DNA of 60,413 bases, taken from the NCBI GenBank assembly GCA_902767245.1, contig CACXGO010000021.1, forward strand, positions 1 through 60,413. Reading direction: 5' to 3'. The notes below the pieces were generated by a model. It worked only from the letters and a program-made list of their open reading frames with translations, was not told where the DNA came from and searched no databases. Origin of the DNA: an uncultured Erysipelotrichaceae bacterium (GTDB lineage: Bacteria; Bacillota_I; Bacilli_A; RF39; UBA660). Position numbers and translations under genes: made by a program. Positions 60 to 60,402 of the stretch are shown piece by piece (the stretch's first letter is position 1; each line of letters begins with the position of its first letter).

Positions 60-134
60 TGGAGCAAGTGAGCGGAATCGAACCGCCGTCTCAGCCTTGG
101 CAAGGCCGCATACTAACCGCTGTACTACACCTGC
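60..134 (-). tRNA. tRNA-Gly(GCC)
   Basis: Reverse complement GCAGGTGTAGTACAGCGGTTAGTATGCGGCCTTGCCAAGGCTGAGACGGCGGTTCGATTCCGCTCACTTGCTCCA folds as a cloverleaf; anticodon GCC, encoded CCA. Confidence 0.96.
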
Positions 135-146
135 AGTTTATAAAGA

Positions 147-220
147 TGGAGGAGCCAGTCGGATTTGAACCAACGATCAGGGAGTTGCAGTCCCACGCCT
201 TACCACTTGGCTATGGCTCC
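147..220 (-). tRNA. tRNA-Cys(GCA)
   Basis: Reverse complement GGAGCCATAGCCAAGTGGTAAGGCGTGGGACTGCAACTCCCTGATCGTTGGTTCAAATCCGACTGGCTCCTCCA; anticodon GCA, CCA end. Confidence 0.96.
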
Positions 221-15255: not shown

Positions 15256-15330
15256 TGCCCCGTTGCCAAGCGGTAAGGCCTCGGACTCTGACTCCGATAT
15301 GCGTTAGTTCGAATCTAACCGGGGCAACCA
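15256..15330 (+). tRNA. tRNA-Gln(CTG)
   Basis: TGCCCCG...CTCTGAC...TTCGAAT...CGGGGCAACCA cloverleaf, anticodon CTG. Confidence 0.95.
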
Positions 15331-29147: not shown

Positions 29148-30875
29148 TTATTGCGATGTAATAATTACATTATATGTTTTACCTTGTGTTACTTTTGTTC
29201 CATCTTTTACCTGACTATTTTCATGAATATAACCAGCACGAGGATAAGTATTACTTTTTTTATAACTAAAAACAAAATTAACATCAGGATAGTTTTTTGC
29301 AAAATATGTTTTTAAGGTGTTAGCTGTCGCACTAGCATTGCCTAAAGTTAATTGTGATTCAAATATTTGAACCGTAAATGTTTTAGCAGTTCCTTTACTT
29401 AATGTAATAATAAGTGATGTTCCACTTATAACACTAGAACCAGCTTTCTTGTTTTGGCTTACAGCAACATCCTTTGATGTAGTAGAGTATGAGCCATATG
29501 TAAATGAACAAGAAAGTCCTATATTTTTACATGAAGATGTTATTTCCGACTTTGATTTACCAACATAGTTTGGAATTGTTACCGCTTTTCCGTTAGAAAT
29601 AGTTACAATAATAGGAACATTTTCATCTATTAAATCATTAGGAGATAAGGAGAATTTAATAATATTACCTTTGCTAACATTATTATTAAACTCATATTCT
29701 TCTTCATATTTAACATTATATGTATTGGCCCATTTTCTAAATTCACTTAATGATTTAAATGAAAGCATTTTTAATGCACCTTTAGAAGTAGTAACTTTTA
29801 CCAGTGTTCCTTCAGATATTTCTTCATTTTCTTTATAGTTTGCGCTAATTACTTTTCCTGCTTCAATTTTATTGTTATAGGCATCAGTTAATTCAATTTT
29901 TAAATTATTATCTGTAATCCATTTAATTACTTCAGAAATAGTCATTTTAGTTAAATCTGGAACTAAAATTTTATTTCCTTTTGAAACAGTTAAAATAACT
30001 TTAGTATCAAAAGGTTTAATAATCTCGTTTTCTTTTACAGATTGAGAAATAACAACATCTTTGTTTTCATTACTAAAATCATATTTGATTTCATAATTAA
30101 TACCATTTTGTTCTAAATATAGAGTAGCATCAAAAATATTTTTACCAACTAATGAAATCATAGTAATTTCTGATAGTTCACTTTTTTTACCTAATGAAAC
30201 AACAATTTTTACTTCTTCATTTCTTCTAATTTCACCACTTACACTTTGAGTTAAAACAATTCCTTTTTGATTATAATCATTTACTTCATAATCAATTTTA
30301 ACATTATTTAAATGTAAATCAGTAATATCATTTAAAAGTAAACTTATATCTTGCCCAACATATGAAGAAAGTACCACAGTTTTATCATAATTAATACCAT
30401 TAGAAATAGTTACGTTTAATTTTTCAATTTCTTTGACATCAATATTAAATTGATCTTGAGCAAAAATATTATTTTCTTTAAATGAATCACTGAACTCATA
30501 GGTTTGCACTAATTCAACTTTATTTTTAGAAGCCCATTCAACTGCTTCACTAATATTTTTGCCTATAAAATTAGGTACCAAATTTTCAGTTCTTGCTACT
30601 GTTTTTCCAGTATTAATAAGAAAAAAAGTACCAATTCCAAATACCAAAACCATTACTGAATTCAAAATATTAAACTCTGATTTTTTCGATCCAATTCTAA
30701 TTTGATTTATAACTGCTAGAATGGAAGTCATAACTAAAAGCCCAATAATTAAAGCAAGAAGCTTAAAATTTGAAAAATTTCTTTTATAAAGAACAATATA
30801 TACTGCAAAAGCCAAAACTAATACAAGTACAACTATTGATATAATTAAACCATAATTCTTTTTTCCTTTATTCAT
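29148..30875 (-). CDS. Multi-PASTA-domain membrane protein with no catalytic domain
   Basis: Three N-terminal TMs, then about 6 PASTA repeats (VPNFIGK, LSSYVGQ, MISLVGK, VPDLTKM, MLSFKSL, IPNYVGK). Confidence 0.85.
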   Translation of the reverse strand: MNKGKKNYGLIISIVVLVLVLAFAVYIVLYKRNFSNFKLLALIIGLLVMTSILAVINQIRIGSKKSEFNILNSVMVLVFGIGTFFLINTGKTVARTENLVPNFIGKNISEAVEWASKNKVELVQTYEFSDSFKENNIFAQDQFNIDVKEIEKLNVTISNGINYDKTVVLSSYVGQDISLLLNDITDLHLNNVKIDYEVNDYNQKGIVLTQSVSGEIRRNEEVKIVVSLGKKSELSEITMISLVGKNIFDATLYLEQNGINYEIKYDFSNENKDVVISQSVKENEIIKPFDTKVILTVSKGNKILVPDLTKMTISEVIKWITDNNLKIELTDAYNNKIEAGKVISANYKENEEISEGTLVKVTTSKGALKMLSFKSLSEFRKWANTYNVKYEEEYEFNNNVSKGNIIKFSLSPNDLIDENVPIIVTISNGKAVTIPNYVGKSKSEITSSCKNIGLSCSFTYGSYSTTSKDVAVSQNKKAGSSVISGTSLIITLSKGTAKTFTVQIFESQLTLGNASATANTLKTYFAKNYPDVNFVFSYKKSNTYPRAGYIHENSQVKDGTKVTQGKTYNVIITSQ

Positions 30876-30982
30876 ATCATCACCAATCTAATTATATCTT
30901 ATTTTCGTTAAAATAAAAAGATTTATATAAAATATTGTAAATAAAACTTTATTTTTTGAATATATTATAATAAGTTGTCAAT

Positions 30983-31011
30983 TTGACAATCTATTGAATT
31001 TTTGATAAAAT
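30983..31011 (+). promoter_or_regulatory. Consensus sigma-A promoter for the OLE RNA
   Basis: TTGACA-N17-TAAAAT with extended -10 TG; predicted start ~31017-31021. Confidence 0.8.
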
Positions 31012-31020
31012 TTACTTTGT

Positions 31021-31557
31021 TAGTGGCACATTATTCTAGTCACTTCTAATTGTTATGGAGACGGGGCTAAAAATCCGTTGAAGAGCATATATTTCACCTT
31101 TTGGTTTTTGCTTCTTACGCCCAGTTTGGGGTGATAGCTGAAAGGAATGAATTATTGGGCTCTCATAATGGCATATGAGCAAGTTCCAATAATTTGAACG
31201 TCTATTTTATAGACAAAACCTACTAGGTGGCGAATAGTTGCGAGTAGTGTAGCTTGTCTTGAGTGAATGTTGGGGATAATTAGCAACATTTTAAATATAT
31301 GCGGCCACATATATTTAATCTACAAATTTGAAACAGCCTTTGCAAAAAAGAATAAGTAACAATTAAGTGTTTGAGGAAAACTCCTAGGAATGTGTATAGG
31401 TAAGGATTGCAGTGCGAACTAAGTGGTAATCAAGTCATATAGATGGAAACACTATATTAAGTTTTTTAAAGGGGAACCGCTTTTGGGTAACTGAAAGTAA
31501 AACTTAGAGAAATTCTACTTGACCTATGTCGCAAAGTTTACTTCTTATACGCCATTA
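31021..31557 (+). ncRNA. ole: OLE (ornate, large, extremophilic) RNA
   Basis: ORF-free, relatively GC-rich, highly paired: TAGTGGC/GCCATTA closing stem and CACTTCTAATTGTTA/TAACAATTAAGTG; OLE-like motifs TTCTAGTCA, CGGGGCTAAAAATCCG, GAGGAAAACTCCTAG, GGATTGCAGTG..ACTAAGTGGTAATC, GGGGAACCGC; directly upstream of oapA. Confidence 0.9.
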
Positions 31558-31597
31558 TTTATTAATTAGAGCACAGCTCTTTTTTTATAGGTGAAGT

Positions 31598-32164
31598 ATG
31601 AAAAAATATGTTCAAATTTTAAAAAATGATGATAAAAAACACAAAAAAAATAAAAATAATGGATGGATAGTATTAATTACTATTTTATCTTTCATTATTT
31701 CTTTAGTATTTTCGTTTATAGCCGAAACAGTTTTACCTGATGTTAATATAATTTTAGGTATCATTTTGATTTTTTGTTTTATTTTAATTGGTGTACTATT
31801 TGACATGATTGGAGTTGCGGTTGCATCTGCAAATGAGGCACCATTTCATTCAATGGCAAGTCAAAAGGTAAAAGGAGCAGTAACTGCTATAAAAATGATT
31901 AAAAATGCTAGTAAAGTATCATCATTTTGTAATGATGTTATTGGTGATATATGTGGTATTATTTCAGGATCTGCAGGTATTACTATTTCCTTGAAAATTG
32001 GAAATTATTTAAATATAGATCAGCTAATTTTGACATTATTAGTAACTGCTTTAATTGCCGCAATGACGATAGGTGGTAAAGCAATTGGAAAAAGTATTGC
32101 CTTAAATAAAAGCAATATGATTCTTTATGAAACTGCAAAAATATTAAGTATTTTAAAAAAATAG
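31598..32164 (+). CDS. oapA: OLE-associated membrane protein A (DUF21/CNNM-like)
   Basis: About 4 TMs; PFHSMASQKVKGA and FCNDVIGDICGIISG (DxxxD) motifs; immediately downstream of ole. Confidence 0.9.
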   Translation: MKKYVQILKNDDKKHKKNKNNGWIVLITILSFIISLVFSFIAETVLPDVNIILGIILIFCFILIGVLFDMIGVAVASANEAPFHSMASQKVKGAVTAIKMIKNASKVSSFCNDVIGDICGIISGSAGITISLKIGNYLNIDQLILTLLVTALIAAMTIGGKAIGKSIALNKSNMILYETAKILSILKK

Positions 32165-32222
32165 TTTATTTGACATGAGCTATTTTTTATTATATAATTT
32201 ATTGTGAAATGAGGTAAATTTT

Positions 32223-32651
32223 ATGAATTTAGATGAACGTAAAGAAGCAATAAAAGAAATAGAAAAAATTAAAAAATTAGAATACAAATCAGGAGTAAAG
32301 AGCCATCATTATACTGCCAAAGAAGTAGTTATGGCAATATTAGTTGGTGGCAGTTTAGCTAGTTATATTGTGCAAAAAGGTGTTGAACCAATTGCAAATC
32401 TTGAAGCTCTTCCAAGTAATGGTTACTTAGAAGAAAGTTGGATTTGGATAAAACAAGTATTTTTACCAAAACTACGTAGTTTTCCAGAACTTTGGAATGC
32501 TATTAAGCCAAATAATAGTTTGGAAGGATTTACAGCTGCAACAACCGCTTTATTTGCAGGAGCTGGAATGTGGTTTCATCATAAAAAAGCTTTATTAAAA
32601 AAGCAACTAGATAAAGAACAAAGTGAAGAAATAAAAGGTTTGGGGAGATAA
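32223..32651 (+). CDS. Hypothetical protein with two hydrophobic segments
   Basis: Own TTGACA-N17-TATAAT promoter (32170-32198) and GAGG SD; no family recognised. Confidence 0.7.
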   Translation: MNLDERKEAIKEIEKIKKLEYKSGVKSHHYTAKEVVMAILVGGSLASYIVQKGVEPIANLEALPSNGYLEESWIWIKQVFLPKLRSFPELWNAIKPNNSLEGFTAATTALFAGAGMWFHHKKALLKKQLDKEQSEEIKGLGR

Positions 32652-32652
32652 T

Positions 32653-32877
32653 ATGAAGTTTGAAATTGGAGATATCATAACATTAGCTGATGATAAAGAT
32701 TATGTAATAAGTTGTGCTAAAAATTATGAAGGTAATTTATATATGTTATTAATAGAAATGCCTGATTATAAATCATTTAAGTATGTAAAAGTTATTGATA
32801 AAAGTAATTTAGAAGAATTAGAAGATATTGAATTAATTGAAAAATTATCAGCATTATTTACAAAAACTGAAGATTAA
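32653..32877 (+). CDS. Small acidic hypothetical protein (DUF1292-like)
   Basis: IITL.DD..Y.I.......YMLL pattern; coupled to the upstream ORF. Confidence 0.6.
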   Translation: MKFEIGDIITLADDKDYVISCAKNYEGNLYMLLIEMPDYKSFKYVKVIDKSNLEELEDIELIEKLSALFTKTED

Positions 32878-60041: not shown

Positions 60042-60115
60042 TGGAGCAAATAACGGGAATCGAACCCGCACCCTAAGCTTGGGAAGCTCATGTTCTACCA
60101 TTAAACTATATCTGC
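60042..60115 (-). tRNA. tRNA-Gly(CCC)
   Basis: Reverse complement GCAGATATAGTTTAATGGTAGAACATGAGCTTCCCAAGCTTAGGGTGCGGGTTCGATTCCCGTTATTTGCTCCA. Confidence 0.94.
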
Positions 60116-60328
60116 ATAAAATTATATTAACATAAATATTAAATTTTTTCAATTTAAATGTTATAAATTAAATTCTTTTATAATTAATAAAGATATTCAA
60201 AATATTGTGATAGTTATAAGTAAATAATAGTATAAAGGAATGCTCCTAAAACTTAAAAAATGCATTTCACAGGTAACATTTAATTGACAAATAATAAAAA
60301 TAGTGTATAATTAAAATTGCTTACCAAT

Positions 60329-60402
<74 letters not shown>

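What the first reader, a model, noticed from the sequence alone, without database searches (positions are those of the whole stretch)
31021..32164. OLE RNA-oapA ribonucleoprotein locus hidden in an ORF-free gap
Seen: a consensus promoter, a ~537-nt multi-stem RNA closed by TAGTGGC/GCCATTA, then a 4-TM protein with NDVIGD. Known: OLE RNAs (~600 nt) form membrane RNPs with OapA/B/C, are linked to cold, alcohol and Mg2+ tolerance, and have no settled biochemical function. Inference: this variant is ~60 nt shorter and is retained in a streamlined genome, so it could define the minimal OLE core. The RNA class itself is known; novelty would lie in the variant and its host.
Basis: partly seen in the sequence, partly recalled or inferred. 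Interest (0 to 1): 0.75.

Follow-up and report, generated by a model that had tools for sequence, protein, structure and literature searches.

The report
Trimmed OLE RNA with oapA partner
This gene-free gap holds a real but somewhat shortened copy of OLE RNA, a large membrane-associated bacterial RNA known since 2006, followed by the gene for its membrane partner OapA; shortened copies in small-genome gut bacteria are already in print, so this is an ordinary find.

Summary
Confirmed. Window 31007-31571 (+) matches Rfam OLE (RF01071) over the whole model at 338 bits, E 1e-95. The 188-aa ORF behind it (31598-32164) is OapA. It has an invariant DxxxD motif, four long helices and a CNNM-like fold, and its homologues sit behind OLE in other genomes.

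The novelty claim fails. Fernando & Breaker 2024 (PMC11332333) already describe shortened OLE variants in reduced-genome gut clades (TANB77, RF39) that lack OapB and OapC. In the host's own family, 15 of 24 other genomes carry OLE. Hit lengths are 486-609 nt, and 6 of the 16 copies are shorter than this 565-nt hit. So this copy is not a minimal core.

About 60 nt are missing. P7 is reduced to a 15-nt stub, J6/7 is gone and the P11 hairpin is absent. No OapC family match turned up in 41 family genomes, and no true OapB match in 65 genomes of family and class.

One small point is specific to this copy: it alone of 21 aligned OLEs lacks the GA of J4a/5, so both k-turn strands are gone.

The scan has noted OLE-oapA on other DNA many times.

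The parts
30983..31011 (+). Sigma-70-type promoter: TTGACA, 17 nt, TG-n-TAAAAT. The predicted start lies a few bases before the closing helix P1.
   Evidence: 11 of 12 consensus matches, TG present. The start site is inferred, not mapped.
31007..31571 (+). Full extent of the Rfam OLE (RF01071) match, flanks included.
   Evidence: 338.1 bits, E 1.1e-95, model 1-616; the only copy in the assembly.
31021..31557 (+). OLE RNA proper, 537 nt, closed by P1 (31021-31027 paired with 31551-31557).
   Evidence: Sequence. P1-type closure in 19 of 19 scorable homologues.
31041..31055 (+). 5' strands of two long-range helices (CACU, then UAAUUGUUA). They pair with 31357-31369. This probably corresponds to the published P2/P3 stack, which the Rfam model does not include.
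   Evidence: Direct complementarity of 4 + 9 pairs in the sequence. Several pair types at these columns across 21 homologues, 55-95% canonical in a sequence-only alignment. The naming is inferred.
31060..31079 (+). P4 hairpin with the A-rich loop CUAAAAAU (L4). In the cryo-EM dimer this loop forms bridge B1.
   Evidence: model 54-73; motif present. Its role is from PMC12286853 section 5.
31087..31097 (+). J4a/5, the bulged strand of the OapC k-turn in other OLEs. Here it reads AUAUAUUUCAC: A at model position 85 instead of C, and no GA dinucleotide.
   Evidence: the only 1 of 21 aligned OLEs without GA here. Alignment confidence in this stretch is lower (posterior 6-8).
31098..31144 (+). P5/P5.1 hairpin with the GCCCA loop (L5).
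   Evidence: model 93-139.
31149..31195 (+). P6 hairpin with the AAUGGCAU loop (L6).
   Evidence: model 144-190.
31200..31214 (+). 15-nt stub hairpin (GUCUAU / AUAGAC) replacing P7. The conserved J6/7 motif GGAGAC before it is missing.
   Evidence: model 204-236: 33 positions answered by 2 nt; 80 nt between the L6 and J8/9 anchors, against 98-129 in the other 10 family copies that keep P7 and P8 (98-203 when five copies from named genomes are added).
31220..31247 (+). P8 hairpin, retained.
   Evidence: model 249-280.
31256..31350 (+). P9 arm, full length (coordinates approximate), with the self-complementary GGCC loop at 31303-31306 (L9.3, kissing-loop bridge B3).
   Evidence: (81 nt between anchors, as in full-length copies). 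Its role is from PMC12286853 section 5.
31373..31383 (+). P10 hairpin (GAG-GAAAA-CUC). The next small hairpin of the model (positions 425-435, P11 by my mapping) is absent.
   Evidence: 43 nt between the P10 and J12 anchors, against 54-69 in S. vineae and two Oscillospiraceae. All 18 Bacilli-MAG-type copies have 39-43.
31394..31550 (+). 3' domain (P12 to P15), intact. It includes P13 (31437-31457) with a GAAA tetraloop (31446-31449) and a bulged G (31442), which is the OapB docking site in H. halodurans, and P14.1 with a GUAA loop.
   Evidence: Site definition from passages of PMC7936274.
31568..31587 (+). Weak terminator-like hairpin (5 pairs, 3 of them G-C) followed by seven T, between the RNA and oapA.
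   Evidence: 2 such sites in the 2.2-kb region scanned against 0.5 expected. Its function is not shown.
31590..32164 (+). oapA: GGTGA ribosome-binding site (31590-31594) and ORF 31598-32164 (188 aa). The DxxxD codons are at 31934-31948.

Best explanation
This is the ole gene and its partner gene oapA in an uncultured gut bacterium of the class Bacilli. The genome is small, probably order RF39 (assembly 1.08 Mb at 76% completeness).

Shown here: the RNA belongs to the OLE family. It has its own consensus promoter and a closing helix, and it keeps most of the conserved loops. The downstream protein has all the sequence and fold marks of OapA.

Inferred from work on Halalkalibacterium halodurans and Clostridium acetobutylicum: a transcript of about 537 nt, possibly with read-through into oapA past a weak terminator, folds and dimerises. 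Dimer contacts would be the A-rich L4 loop, the L5 and L6 loops and the GGCC kissing loop of P9. Dimers of the four-helix, CNNM-like membrane protein OapA hold it at the membrane. The particle helps the cell cope with divalent-cation and other stresses, doing part of the job that MpfA/CorB-type Mg2+ transporters do in relatives that lack OLE.

In this lineage the particle works with fewer known partners. No OapB or OapC gene was found in the family. In this copy P7, J6/7, P11 and the GA of J4a/5 (the k-turn) are gone.

It is a moderately trimmed member of the published series of reduced OLE variants, not the smallest one.
For: Family membership: RF01071 at 338.1 bits, E 1e-95, model 1-616; a single copy in the genome.

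Retained elements: L4, L5, L6, the L9.3 GGCC loop, the P13 GAAA loop plus bulge, and the P14.1 GUAA loop.

Promoter and terminator-like site.

OapA: 7712 homologues at E <= 0.001 among 8000 scored. D113 and D117 are invariant in 19 sequences, including S. vineae. There is a weak CNNM hit below the Pfam cut-off (18 bits against 28.4), which is how PMC11332333 section 9 describes OapA. The AF2 model has pLDDT 84.8, and its six best Foldseek matches are all CNNM/CorB/CorC membrane domains: 7m1t, 7m1u, 7cff and 7cfg, probability 0.97-1.00, TM 0.43-0.51. In 5 of 6 loci found through OapA similarity in named genomes, an OLE hit lies directly upstream. All 16 OLE-bearing family genomes have an oapA-like ORF downstream: 15 directly and one, G010, 1.5 kb away.

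Partners. OapC (PF01248): 0 of 41 family genomes, 34 of them at least 90% complete; the control rang in B. subtilis. OapB: an S. vineae ORF verified against PDB 7k9b at E 1e-26 gave only two weak matches in 41 family genomes. Both lie inside DNMK-type kinase ORFs. A two-sequence profile gave 0 of 41. The same single query did find a 24%-identical OapB in an Oscillospiraceae MAG. In 4 of 5 OLE-bearing relatives, including the same-genus G003, map and infA are 4 nt apart, so the usual oapB slot is empty (map and adk checked against Pfam for G003 only).

MpfA. None of the 16 OLE-bearing genomes has a CNNM match above 29 bits other than its own OapA, whereas 15 of 16 relatives outside the family, none with OLE, have one above 100 bits.

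Expression hint: a bovine-gut metatranscriptome run holds a 328-nt contig identical over 31066-31386.
Against: No experiment exists for this organism. Transcript ends, dimerisation, OapA binding, membrane location and function are all carried over from other species.

The RNA-library contig cannot show strand or level, and DNA carry-over is possible.

The assembly is 76% complete and lacks the infA region. Absence of oapB and oapC in this very genome therefore rests on its relatives.

Two of three same-genus genomes have no OLE hit (G001 at 96% and G002 at 88% complete), so the RNA is dispensable within the genus.

The idea that OLE-OapA replaces MpfA is not a strict either/or here: 8 of the 9 OLE-less family genomes also lack an MpfA-like CNNM protein.

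Loss of L7, which is part of dimer bridge B2, and of the k-turn might impair functions seen in model species.

My assignment of P names to Rfam positions was derived from nucleotide numbers in text passages. I did not see the published figures.
Confidence: 0.9

Rival explanations
1. One reading: this copy is an unusually small OLE that defines the minimal functional core of the class.
For: It is about 60 nt shorter than full-length copies: the hit is 565 nt against 628 nt in S. vineae and 645 nt in an Oscillospiraceae MAG. It sits in a small genome.
Against: Six of 16 copies in the same family are shorter (486-536 nt). Five of them lack P7 and P8 and have a truncated P9. Such variants are published: PMC11332333 section 5.
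Confidence: 0.03
2. A decaying relic: the RNA is on its way to being lost in this genus and no longer works. The deletion of P7 and J6/7 and the loss of the k-turn are early damage.
For: Two of three same-genus genomes have no OLE. This is the only 1 of 21 aligned copies without GA in J4a/5, and it also lacks J6/7. Its score (338 bits) is lower than that of the same-genus copy in G003 (408 bits).
Against: All other conserved loops and the whole 3' domain are intact. oapA is open and keeps all 25 invariant positions of the 19-sequence alignment. A near-consensus promoter is in place. A contig in an RNA library covers 321 nt of it exactly. Relatives with much larger deletions still keep the RNA together with oapA.
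Confidence: 0.06
3. The structured region is only a long 5' leader that controls oapA in cis, not an RNA that acts on its own.
For: One promoter is placed to serve both, only a weak terminator-like hairpin separates them, and oapA starts 41 nt after P1.
Against: In G010 the RNA and oapA are separated by about 1.5 kb holding two genes on the other strand. In model species OLE is a stable, abundant RNA that binds OapA protein, as stated in PMC12265935 section 3. The RNA-library contig stops inside the RNA and none covers oapA, which is weak evidence.
Confidence: 0.02

Closest known systems
Full-length OLE RNA (Rfam RF01071), e.g. Halalkalibacterium halodurans and Clostridium acetobutylicum
   Same: Same family by covariance model. 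Same order of helices, same conserved loops (L4, L5, L6, L9.3), same 3' domain with GNRA loops on P13 and P14.1, and oapA directly downstream.
   Different: P7 is reduced to a 15-nt stub, J6/7 (GGAGAC) is missing, the P11 hairpin is missing, and J4a/5 has no GA and has A at position 85, so the OapC k-turn cannot form. The gene neighbourhood is not the ispA/dxs cluster. Here it is a PASTA-domain protein gene upstream and holA downstream. No oapB or oapC was found in the family.
Reduced OLE 'variant 1' (mostly TANB77) and 'variant 2' (mostly RF39) of Fernando & Breaker 2024 (PMC11332333)
   Same: A reduced-genome gut lineage without OapB and OapC, with shortening centred on the J6/7-to-P8 region. 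The score of 338 bits lies in their variant-1 band (310-390), although that band was set with their own model, not Rfam's.
   Different: It fits neither description fully. P8 and P9 are full length, unlike variant 1. The OapB site on P13 is kept, whereas it is often missing in variant 1. P8 is present, whereas variant 2 lacks both P7 and P8. Five relatives in the same family do fit variant 2. I did not see their consensus figure or supplements.
OapA, and the CNNM membrane domain of MpfA/CorB/CorC Mg2+ transporters (PDB 7m1t, 7m1u, 7cff)
   Same: OapA marks: DxxxD, four long helices, about 190 aa, no CBS or CorC domains, and position directly after ole. The fold is closest to CNNM membrane domains. 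PMC11332333 section 9 reports the same for H. halodurans OapA.
   Different: It falls below the Pfam CNNM cut-off (18 against 28.4 bits) and is 35% identical to S. vineae OapA in tblastn (36% in alignment A1). No transport or RNA-binding assay exists for it.

Membership tests
OLE RNA (RF01071) | Covariance-model score above the curated gathering score, over the whole model | tested here: met
   338.1 bits against 50, E 1.1e-95, model 1-616, not truncated.
OLE RNA (RF01071) | Conserved loops and junctions: L4 CUAAAAAU, L5 GCCCA, L6 AAUGGCAU, L9.3 GGCC, ACUAAGUGGUAAUC, and GNRA loops on P13 and P14.1 | tested here: met
   All present.
OLE RNA (RF01071) | oapA gene immediately downstream | tested here: met
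   ORF 31598-32164 starts 41 nt after P1.
OLE RNA (RF01071) | Host in Bacillota | tested here: inconclusive
The nearest named OapA loci are 'Bacilli bacterium' MAGs from ruminant gut at 52-57% identity. No rRNA or marker phylogeny was run.
OLE RNA (RF01071) | K-turn at the base of P5 (J4a/5 with J5/6 or J6/7) that binds OapC | tested here: not met
   There is no GA in J4a/5, position 85 is A, and J6/7 GGAGAC is absent. The feature is described in passages of PMC9723947 and in PMC12286853 section 5. It is not a feature required by the Rfam model.
OLE RNA (RF01071) | Dimer formation, membrane location and stress phenotypes | not testable with these tools
   This needs experiments.
OLE 'variant 1' (Fernando & Breaker 2024) | Shorter P7, P8 and P9; OapB site on P13 often missing | tested here: inconclusive
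   P7 is shortened, which fits. P8 and P9 are full length and the P13 site is kept, which does not fit. Their score bands use their own model.
OLE 'variant 2' (Fernando & Breaker 2024) | P7 and P8 entirely absent | tested here: not met
   P8 is present at 31220-31247.
OapA | DxxxD motif | tested here: met
   D113-V-I-G-D117, invariant in 19 of 19 aligned sequences. The motif is called distinctive in PMC11332333 section 9.
OapA | Four transmembrane helices, a CNNM-like fold, no CBS or CorC domains | tested here: met
   AF2 helices at 21-48, 51-77, 104-138 and 142-170. The top six Foldseek matches are CNNM/CorB/CorC membrane domains. The only Pfam hit is a sub-threshold CNNM match.
OapA | Lacks the conserved proline of CNNM domains | not tested
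   Mentioned in PMC11332333 section 9. I did not align against CNNM domains column by column.
OapA | Binds OLE RNA at 2:1 and holds it at the membrane | not testable with these tools
   Biochemistry is needed.

The most novel reading that the evidence does not exclude
Within one family of gut Bacilli with genomes of about 1 Mb, OLE occurs as a graded natural deletion series (609 down to 486 nt). OapA is the only known partner.

This copy is a working OLE that has lost both strands of the k-turn (the GA of J4a/5 and the GGAGAC of J6/7) together with L7, while keeping L4, L5, L6, L9.3 and the whole 3' domain.

If it is functional, three things follow. K-turn docking of OapC and bS21 and the L7 part of dimer bridge B2 are dispensable for the core activity. 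The joint loss fits the cryo-EM assignment of the k-turn to J4a/5 plus J6/7. The GNRA loop and bulge on P13, kept in 15 of 16 family copies although no OapB gene was found, are held by an RNA-RNA contact or an unknown protein rather than by OapB.
Probability: 0.3. Interest if true: 0.4.

Novelty: new member of a known kind. Interest (0 to 1): 0.2.

Why it matters
It adds one more OLE-oapA locus to a class with several thousand known members and no settled biochemical function. Its modest value is comparative. The host family offers natural deletion variants that still travel with oapA and have no OapB or OapC. These could guide which helices to keep in minimal constructs for structural or reconstitution work. 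The principle is already published (PMC11332333), so this copy does not open a new question.

Tried and rejected
(1) The 74-aa ORF 32653-32877 as a hidden OapB, because of its KOW-like start. It has no Pfam or NCBIfam hit. OapB is not among its PDB matches at E <= 10, where the best is a short chance match to I-MsoI. A homologue exists in only 1 of 40 relatives, and not near OLE. Rejected.

(2) The 142-aa ORF 32223-32651 as a new partner. It has no family hit and 0 of 40 relatives carry it. It is absent in the same-genus G003, where oapA abuts holA. Rejected.

(3) Pfam KOW (PF00467) as a probe for OapB. It finds only a 183-aa frame in the own genome, and a verified OapB has no Pfam hit at all. 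The probe is uninformative.

(4) The weak OapB-like matches in G000 (E 0.007) and G005 (E 2e-4) lie inside DNMK-type kinase ORFs. False positives.

(5) A synteny check for oapB in the own genome failed because infA is not in the assembly. Relatives were used instead.

(6) Regex anchors for measuring helices failed for about half of the sequences. They were replaced by distances between anchor columns in a MAFFT alignment.

(7) A column-wise pair count for P1 on the MAFFT alignment gave only about 50-70% standard pairs, because the 3' strand is aligned out of register. Inconclusive. It was replaced by an anchored per-sequence search, which is biased towards finding pairs.

(8) Reads. The RNA-library run X6 has no contig over oapA or the flanks, and the other short X6 pieces are conserved OLE segments of other organisms. 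This is not evidence about oapA expression. Runs holding small shares of the sampled words were not used for habitat.

(9) The search for related loci confirmed only 6 loci out of 599 pattern matches, too few for a wide survey.

(10) A passage search of PMC10898510 for OapA motifs found nothing.
Full report
What is there. The stretch 30876-31597 has no ORF of 50 aa or more apart from a 52-aa frame on the minus strand. A scan of the whole window against Rfam gives one strong non-tRNA match. It is OLE (RF01071) at 31007-31571 on the + strand: 338.1 bits against a gathering score of 50, E 1.1e-95, covering model positions 1-616 without truncation. This is the only OLE match in the assembly, which has 1,079,636 bases in 46 contigs and is 76% complete. 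The RNA is richer in G+C (35.6%) than the window (25.9%).

The promoter is a near-consensus site: TTGACA, 17 nt, TAAAAT with an upstream TG, at 30983-31011. It ends about 10 nt before TAGTGGC (31021-31027). An equivalent closing helix of 4-12 pairs, with changes on both sides, is present in 19 of 19 scorable homologues out of 21. The script picks the best candidate, so it is biased towards pairing. A column count on a sequence-only alignment was inconclusive.

Two further long-range helices, 31041-31055 with 31357-31369, are directly complementary. They are not part of the Rfam model. A weak terminator-like hairpin with seven T (31568-31587) and a GGTGA ribosome site precede the ORF 31598-32164.

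The protein. The 188-aa product has no Pfam or NCBIfam family above threshold. Its only hit is a weak CNNM match of 18 bits against a cut-off of 28.4. Fernando & Breaker describe OapA in the same way: next-best to MpfA under the CNNM model, with a distinctive DxxxD motif and four transmembrane helices (PMC11332333 section 9, read in full).

It has 7712 homologues at E <= 0.001 among the 8000 candidates scored. In a 19-sequence alignment that includes Sporolactobacillus vineae and two Oscillospiraceae MAGs, D113 and D117 (NDVIGD) are invariant. The AlphaFold2 model (mean pLDDT 84.8, pTM 0.73) has four long helices. Its six best Foldseek matches in the PDB are all CNNM/CorB/CorC membrane domains: 7m1t, 7m1u, 7cff and 7cfg. 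By sequence, 7m1u and 7m1t are also the top PDB hits, though not significant at E 0.24.

In 5 of the 6 loci that the search for related loci confirmed in named genomes, an OLE match lies directly upstream of the homologue. The sixth is a 3-kb contig. So the identification as ole plus oapA is secure.

What is trimmed. I mapped Rfam model positions to published helix names from nucleotide numbers quoted in text: U84, C85 and G144 for the k-turn, P5.1 at 97-135, and the right shoulder of P6 at 187-190 (PMC9723947 passages). I also used the order P3 to P9.3 and loops L4 to L9.3 (PMC12286853 section 5). I did not see the figures, so the names are inferred.

Against the model, three things are missing here:
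- Positions 204-236 (distal P7) are answered by 2 nt, leaving a 15-nt stub hairpin at 31200-31214.
- The conserved J6/7 motif GGAGAC before it is absent.
- The small hairpin at 425-435 (P11) is absent.

I measured distances between conserved anchors in a 21-sequence MAFFT alignment. The L6-to-J8/9 distance is 80 nt here. It is 98-129 nt in the other ten family copies that keep P7 and P8, and 43-54 nt in five family copies that lack both. P9 is full length (81 nt). The P10-to-J12 distance is 43 nt here, 39-43 in all 18 Bacilli-MAG-type copies, and 54-69 in S. vineae and two Oscillospiraceae.

What is kept: the A-rich L4 loop, L5 (GCCCA), L6 (AAUGGCAU), the GGCC loop of P9, and the whole 3' domain. 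That domain includes P13 with a GAAA tetraloop and a bulge, and P14.1 with GUAA. In the cryo-EM dimer of the C. acetobutylicum RNA, L4 forms bridge B1, L5, L6 and L7 together form B2, and the L9.3 kissing loop forms B3 (PMC12286853 section 5). So this copy keeps B1 and B3 and two thirds of B2.

One feature is particular to this copy. In J4a/5 it reads AUAUAUUUCAC. It has A at model position 85 and no GA dinucleotide, and it is the only 1 of 21 aligned OLEs like this. Alignment confidence is somewhat lower in this stretch. C85 pairs with G144 in the k-turn that OapC binds. As I read the passages of PMC9723947, C85A is the mutation that abolishes binding. The cryo-EM paper assigns the other strand of the k-turn to J6/7, which is also missing here. 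So both strands of the k-turn are gone.

Not the minimal core. In the 40 relatives sampled, OLE was found in 15 of 24 genomes of the same family (genomes of 0.8-1.3 Mb). It was found in 0 of 16 from other families of the order or class. Hit lengths are 609, 607, 607, 604, 602, 601, 597, 592, 583, 565 (this one), 536, 502, 497, 495, 494 and 486 nt. So 6 of 16 are shorter. The alignments shown for three of the five shortest, and the anchor distances for all five, show that they lack P7 and P8 and have a truncated P9. This matches the 'variant 2' that Fernando & Breaker report as common in RF39. 'Variant 1' has shorter P7 to P9 and often no OapB site, and both occur in reduced-genome gut clades that 'are largely missing OapB and OapC' (PMC11332333 section 5 read in full; passages of sections 8 and 12). 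A full-text search for 'OLE RNA' together with 'RF39' returned only that paper. This copy sits between full length and variant 2 and fits neither published variant exactly.

Two of the three other genomes of the same genus have no OLE hit (G001 at 96% and G002 at 88% complete). G003 has a 583-nt copy scoring 408 bits, with the same PASTA-gene, ole, oapA, holA order.

Partners. The L7Ae/YbxF family (PF01248, OapC) was not found in 0 of 41 family genomes. Thirty-four of them are at least 90% complete, and the control rang in B. subtilis. In the own genome the best match is E 0.11 inside long ORFs.

For OapB no Pfam or NCBIfam model exists, so I took a query from a genome that has OLE. In S. vineae, a 108-aa ORF between map and infA matches PDB 7k9b 'OLE-associated protein B' at E 1.3e-26. 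With it, 41 family genomes gave two weak matches, both inside DNMK-type kinase ORFs. The same query did find a 24%-identical OapB between map and infA in an Oscillospiraceae MAG, where PDB 7k9b is the top hit at E 3e-5. A profile of the two sequences gave 0 of 41 relatives.

In 4 of 5 OLE-bearing relatives, including G003, map and infA are 4 nt apart. In the fifth, adk precedes infA (map and adk confirmed by Pfam for G003). The own assembly lacks infA, so for this genome the absence is inferred from its kin. The P13 GNRA loop is nevertheless kept in 15 of 16 family copies. Yang et al. report that this loop also contacts the minor groove of P12.2 (PMC7936274 passages), which would explain its retention without OapB.

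Link to MpfA. None of the 16 OLE-bearing genomes has a CNNM match above 29 bits other than its own OapA. By contrast, 15 of 16 relatives outside the family have matches above 100 bits, two of them interrupted by a stop. This agrees with the published anticorrelation (PMC11332333 abstract). Within the family, however, only 1 of 9 OLE-less genomes (G008) has an MpfA-like protein. So the two are not strict alternatives here.

Expression and habitat. Of 24 runs listed, one bovine-gut run is the likely source of this DNA. A sheep-gut run and another run hold long identical pieces. One bovine-gut metatranscriptome run holds a 328-nt contig identical to 31066-31386, wholly inside the RNA. This is a weak hint of transcription. 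Contigs cannot show strand, ends or level, and DNA may be present in such libraries.

Verdict. The claim to novelty does not hold: the variant type and the host type are in print, and smaller copies exist in the same family. The scan has recorded OLE-oapA loci on other DNA many times. 150 notes in at least 148 genomes hold these words, and several follow-ups judged them ordinary. The loss of both k-turn strands in this copy, and the graded deletion series within one family, are small additions.

Papers. PMC11332333: abstract, sections 5, 6 and 9, and passages of sections 8 and 12; figures and supplements not seen. PMC12265935: abstract, section 3 part 1, and section 6. PMC7936274 and PMC9723947: passages only. 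PMC12286853: section 5 and passages. PMC10898510: a passage search that found nothing. All other titles: search listing only.

Noticed in passing
window 32170-32877: A perfect consensus promoter (TTGACA, 17 nt, TATAAT; 12 of 12) directly after oapA drives two small ORFs: 142 aa at 32223-32651 and 74 aa at 32653-32877. Neither has a Pfam or NCBIfam hit. The first has no homologue in 40 relatives. The second has one, in G010, elsewhere in that genome. The same-genus G003 has oapA directly followed by holA, so this looks like a lineage-specific insertion.
   Followed up: partly
window 29148-30875 (-): A 575-aa protein with an N-terminal membrane segment and six PASTA repeats. Only the C-terminal, non-kinase part of the PknB/Stk1 model matches (model 336-563). 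It appears to be a PASTA sensor without a kinase domain. The same gene lies upstream of ole in G003.
   Followed up: no
L014 (G010:C14:9798-13401): In this relative, ole and oapA are separated by about 1.5 kb carrying two ORFs on the opposite strand (117 and 326 aa). It is the only 1 of 16 family loci where oapA is not directly behind the RNA.
   Followed up: no
G001, G002 (same genus): Two of the three other genomes of the genus have no OLE hit (96% and 88% complete), so the RNA seems to have been lost recently within the genus. I did not check whether oapA is lost with it.
   Followed up: no
G025:C38:12039-12465 and G040:C2:172233-172730: CNNM (MpfA-like) matches interrupted by in-frame stops: TAA in G025 and one TGA in G040. 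The first may be a pseudogene. The second may point to a TGA-reading code in that 0.6-Mb genome.
   Followed up: no
L013 (G007) P13 region: In this family copy, P13 appears to have lost its 3' half and its GNRA loop. It is the only 1 of 16 family copies without the OapB-type site.
   Followed up: no
window 63-220, 15256-15327, 60045-60399: Five tRNA genes, four of them at the two ends of the window.
   Followed up: no
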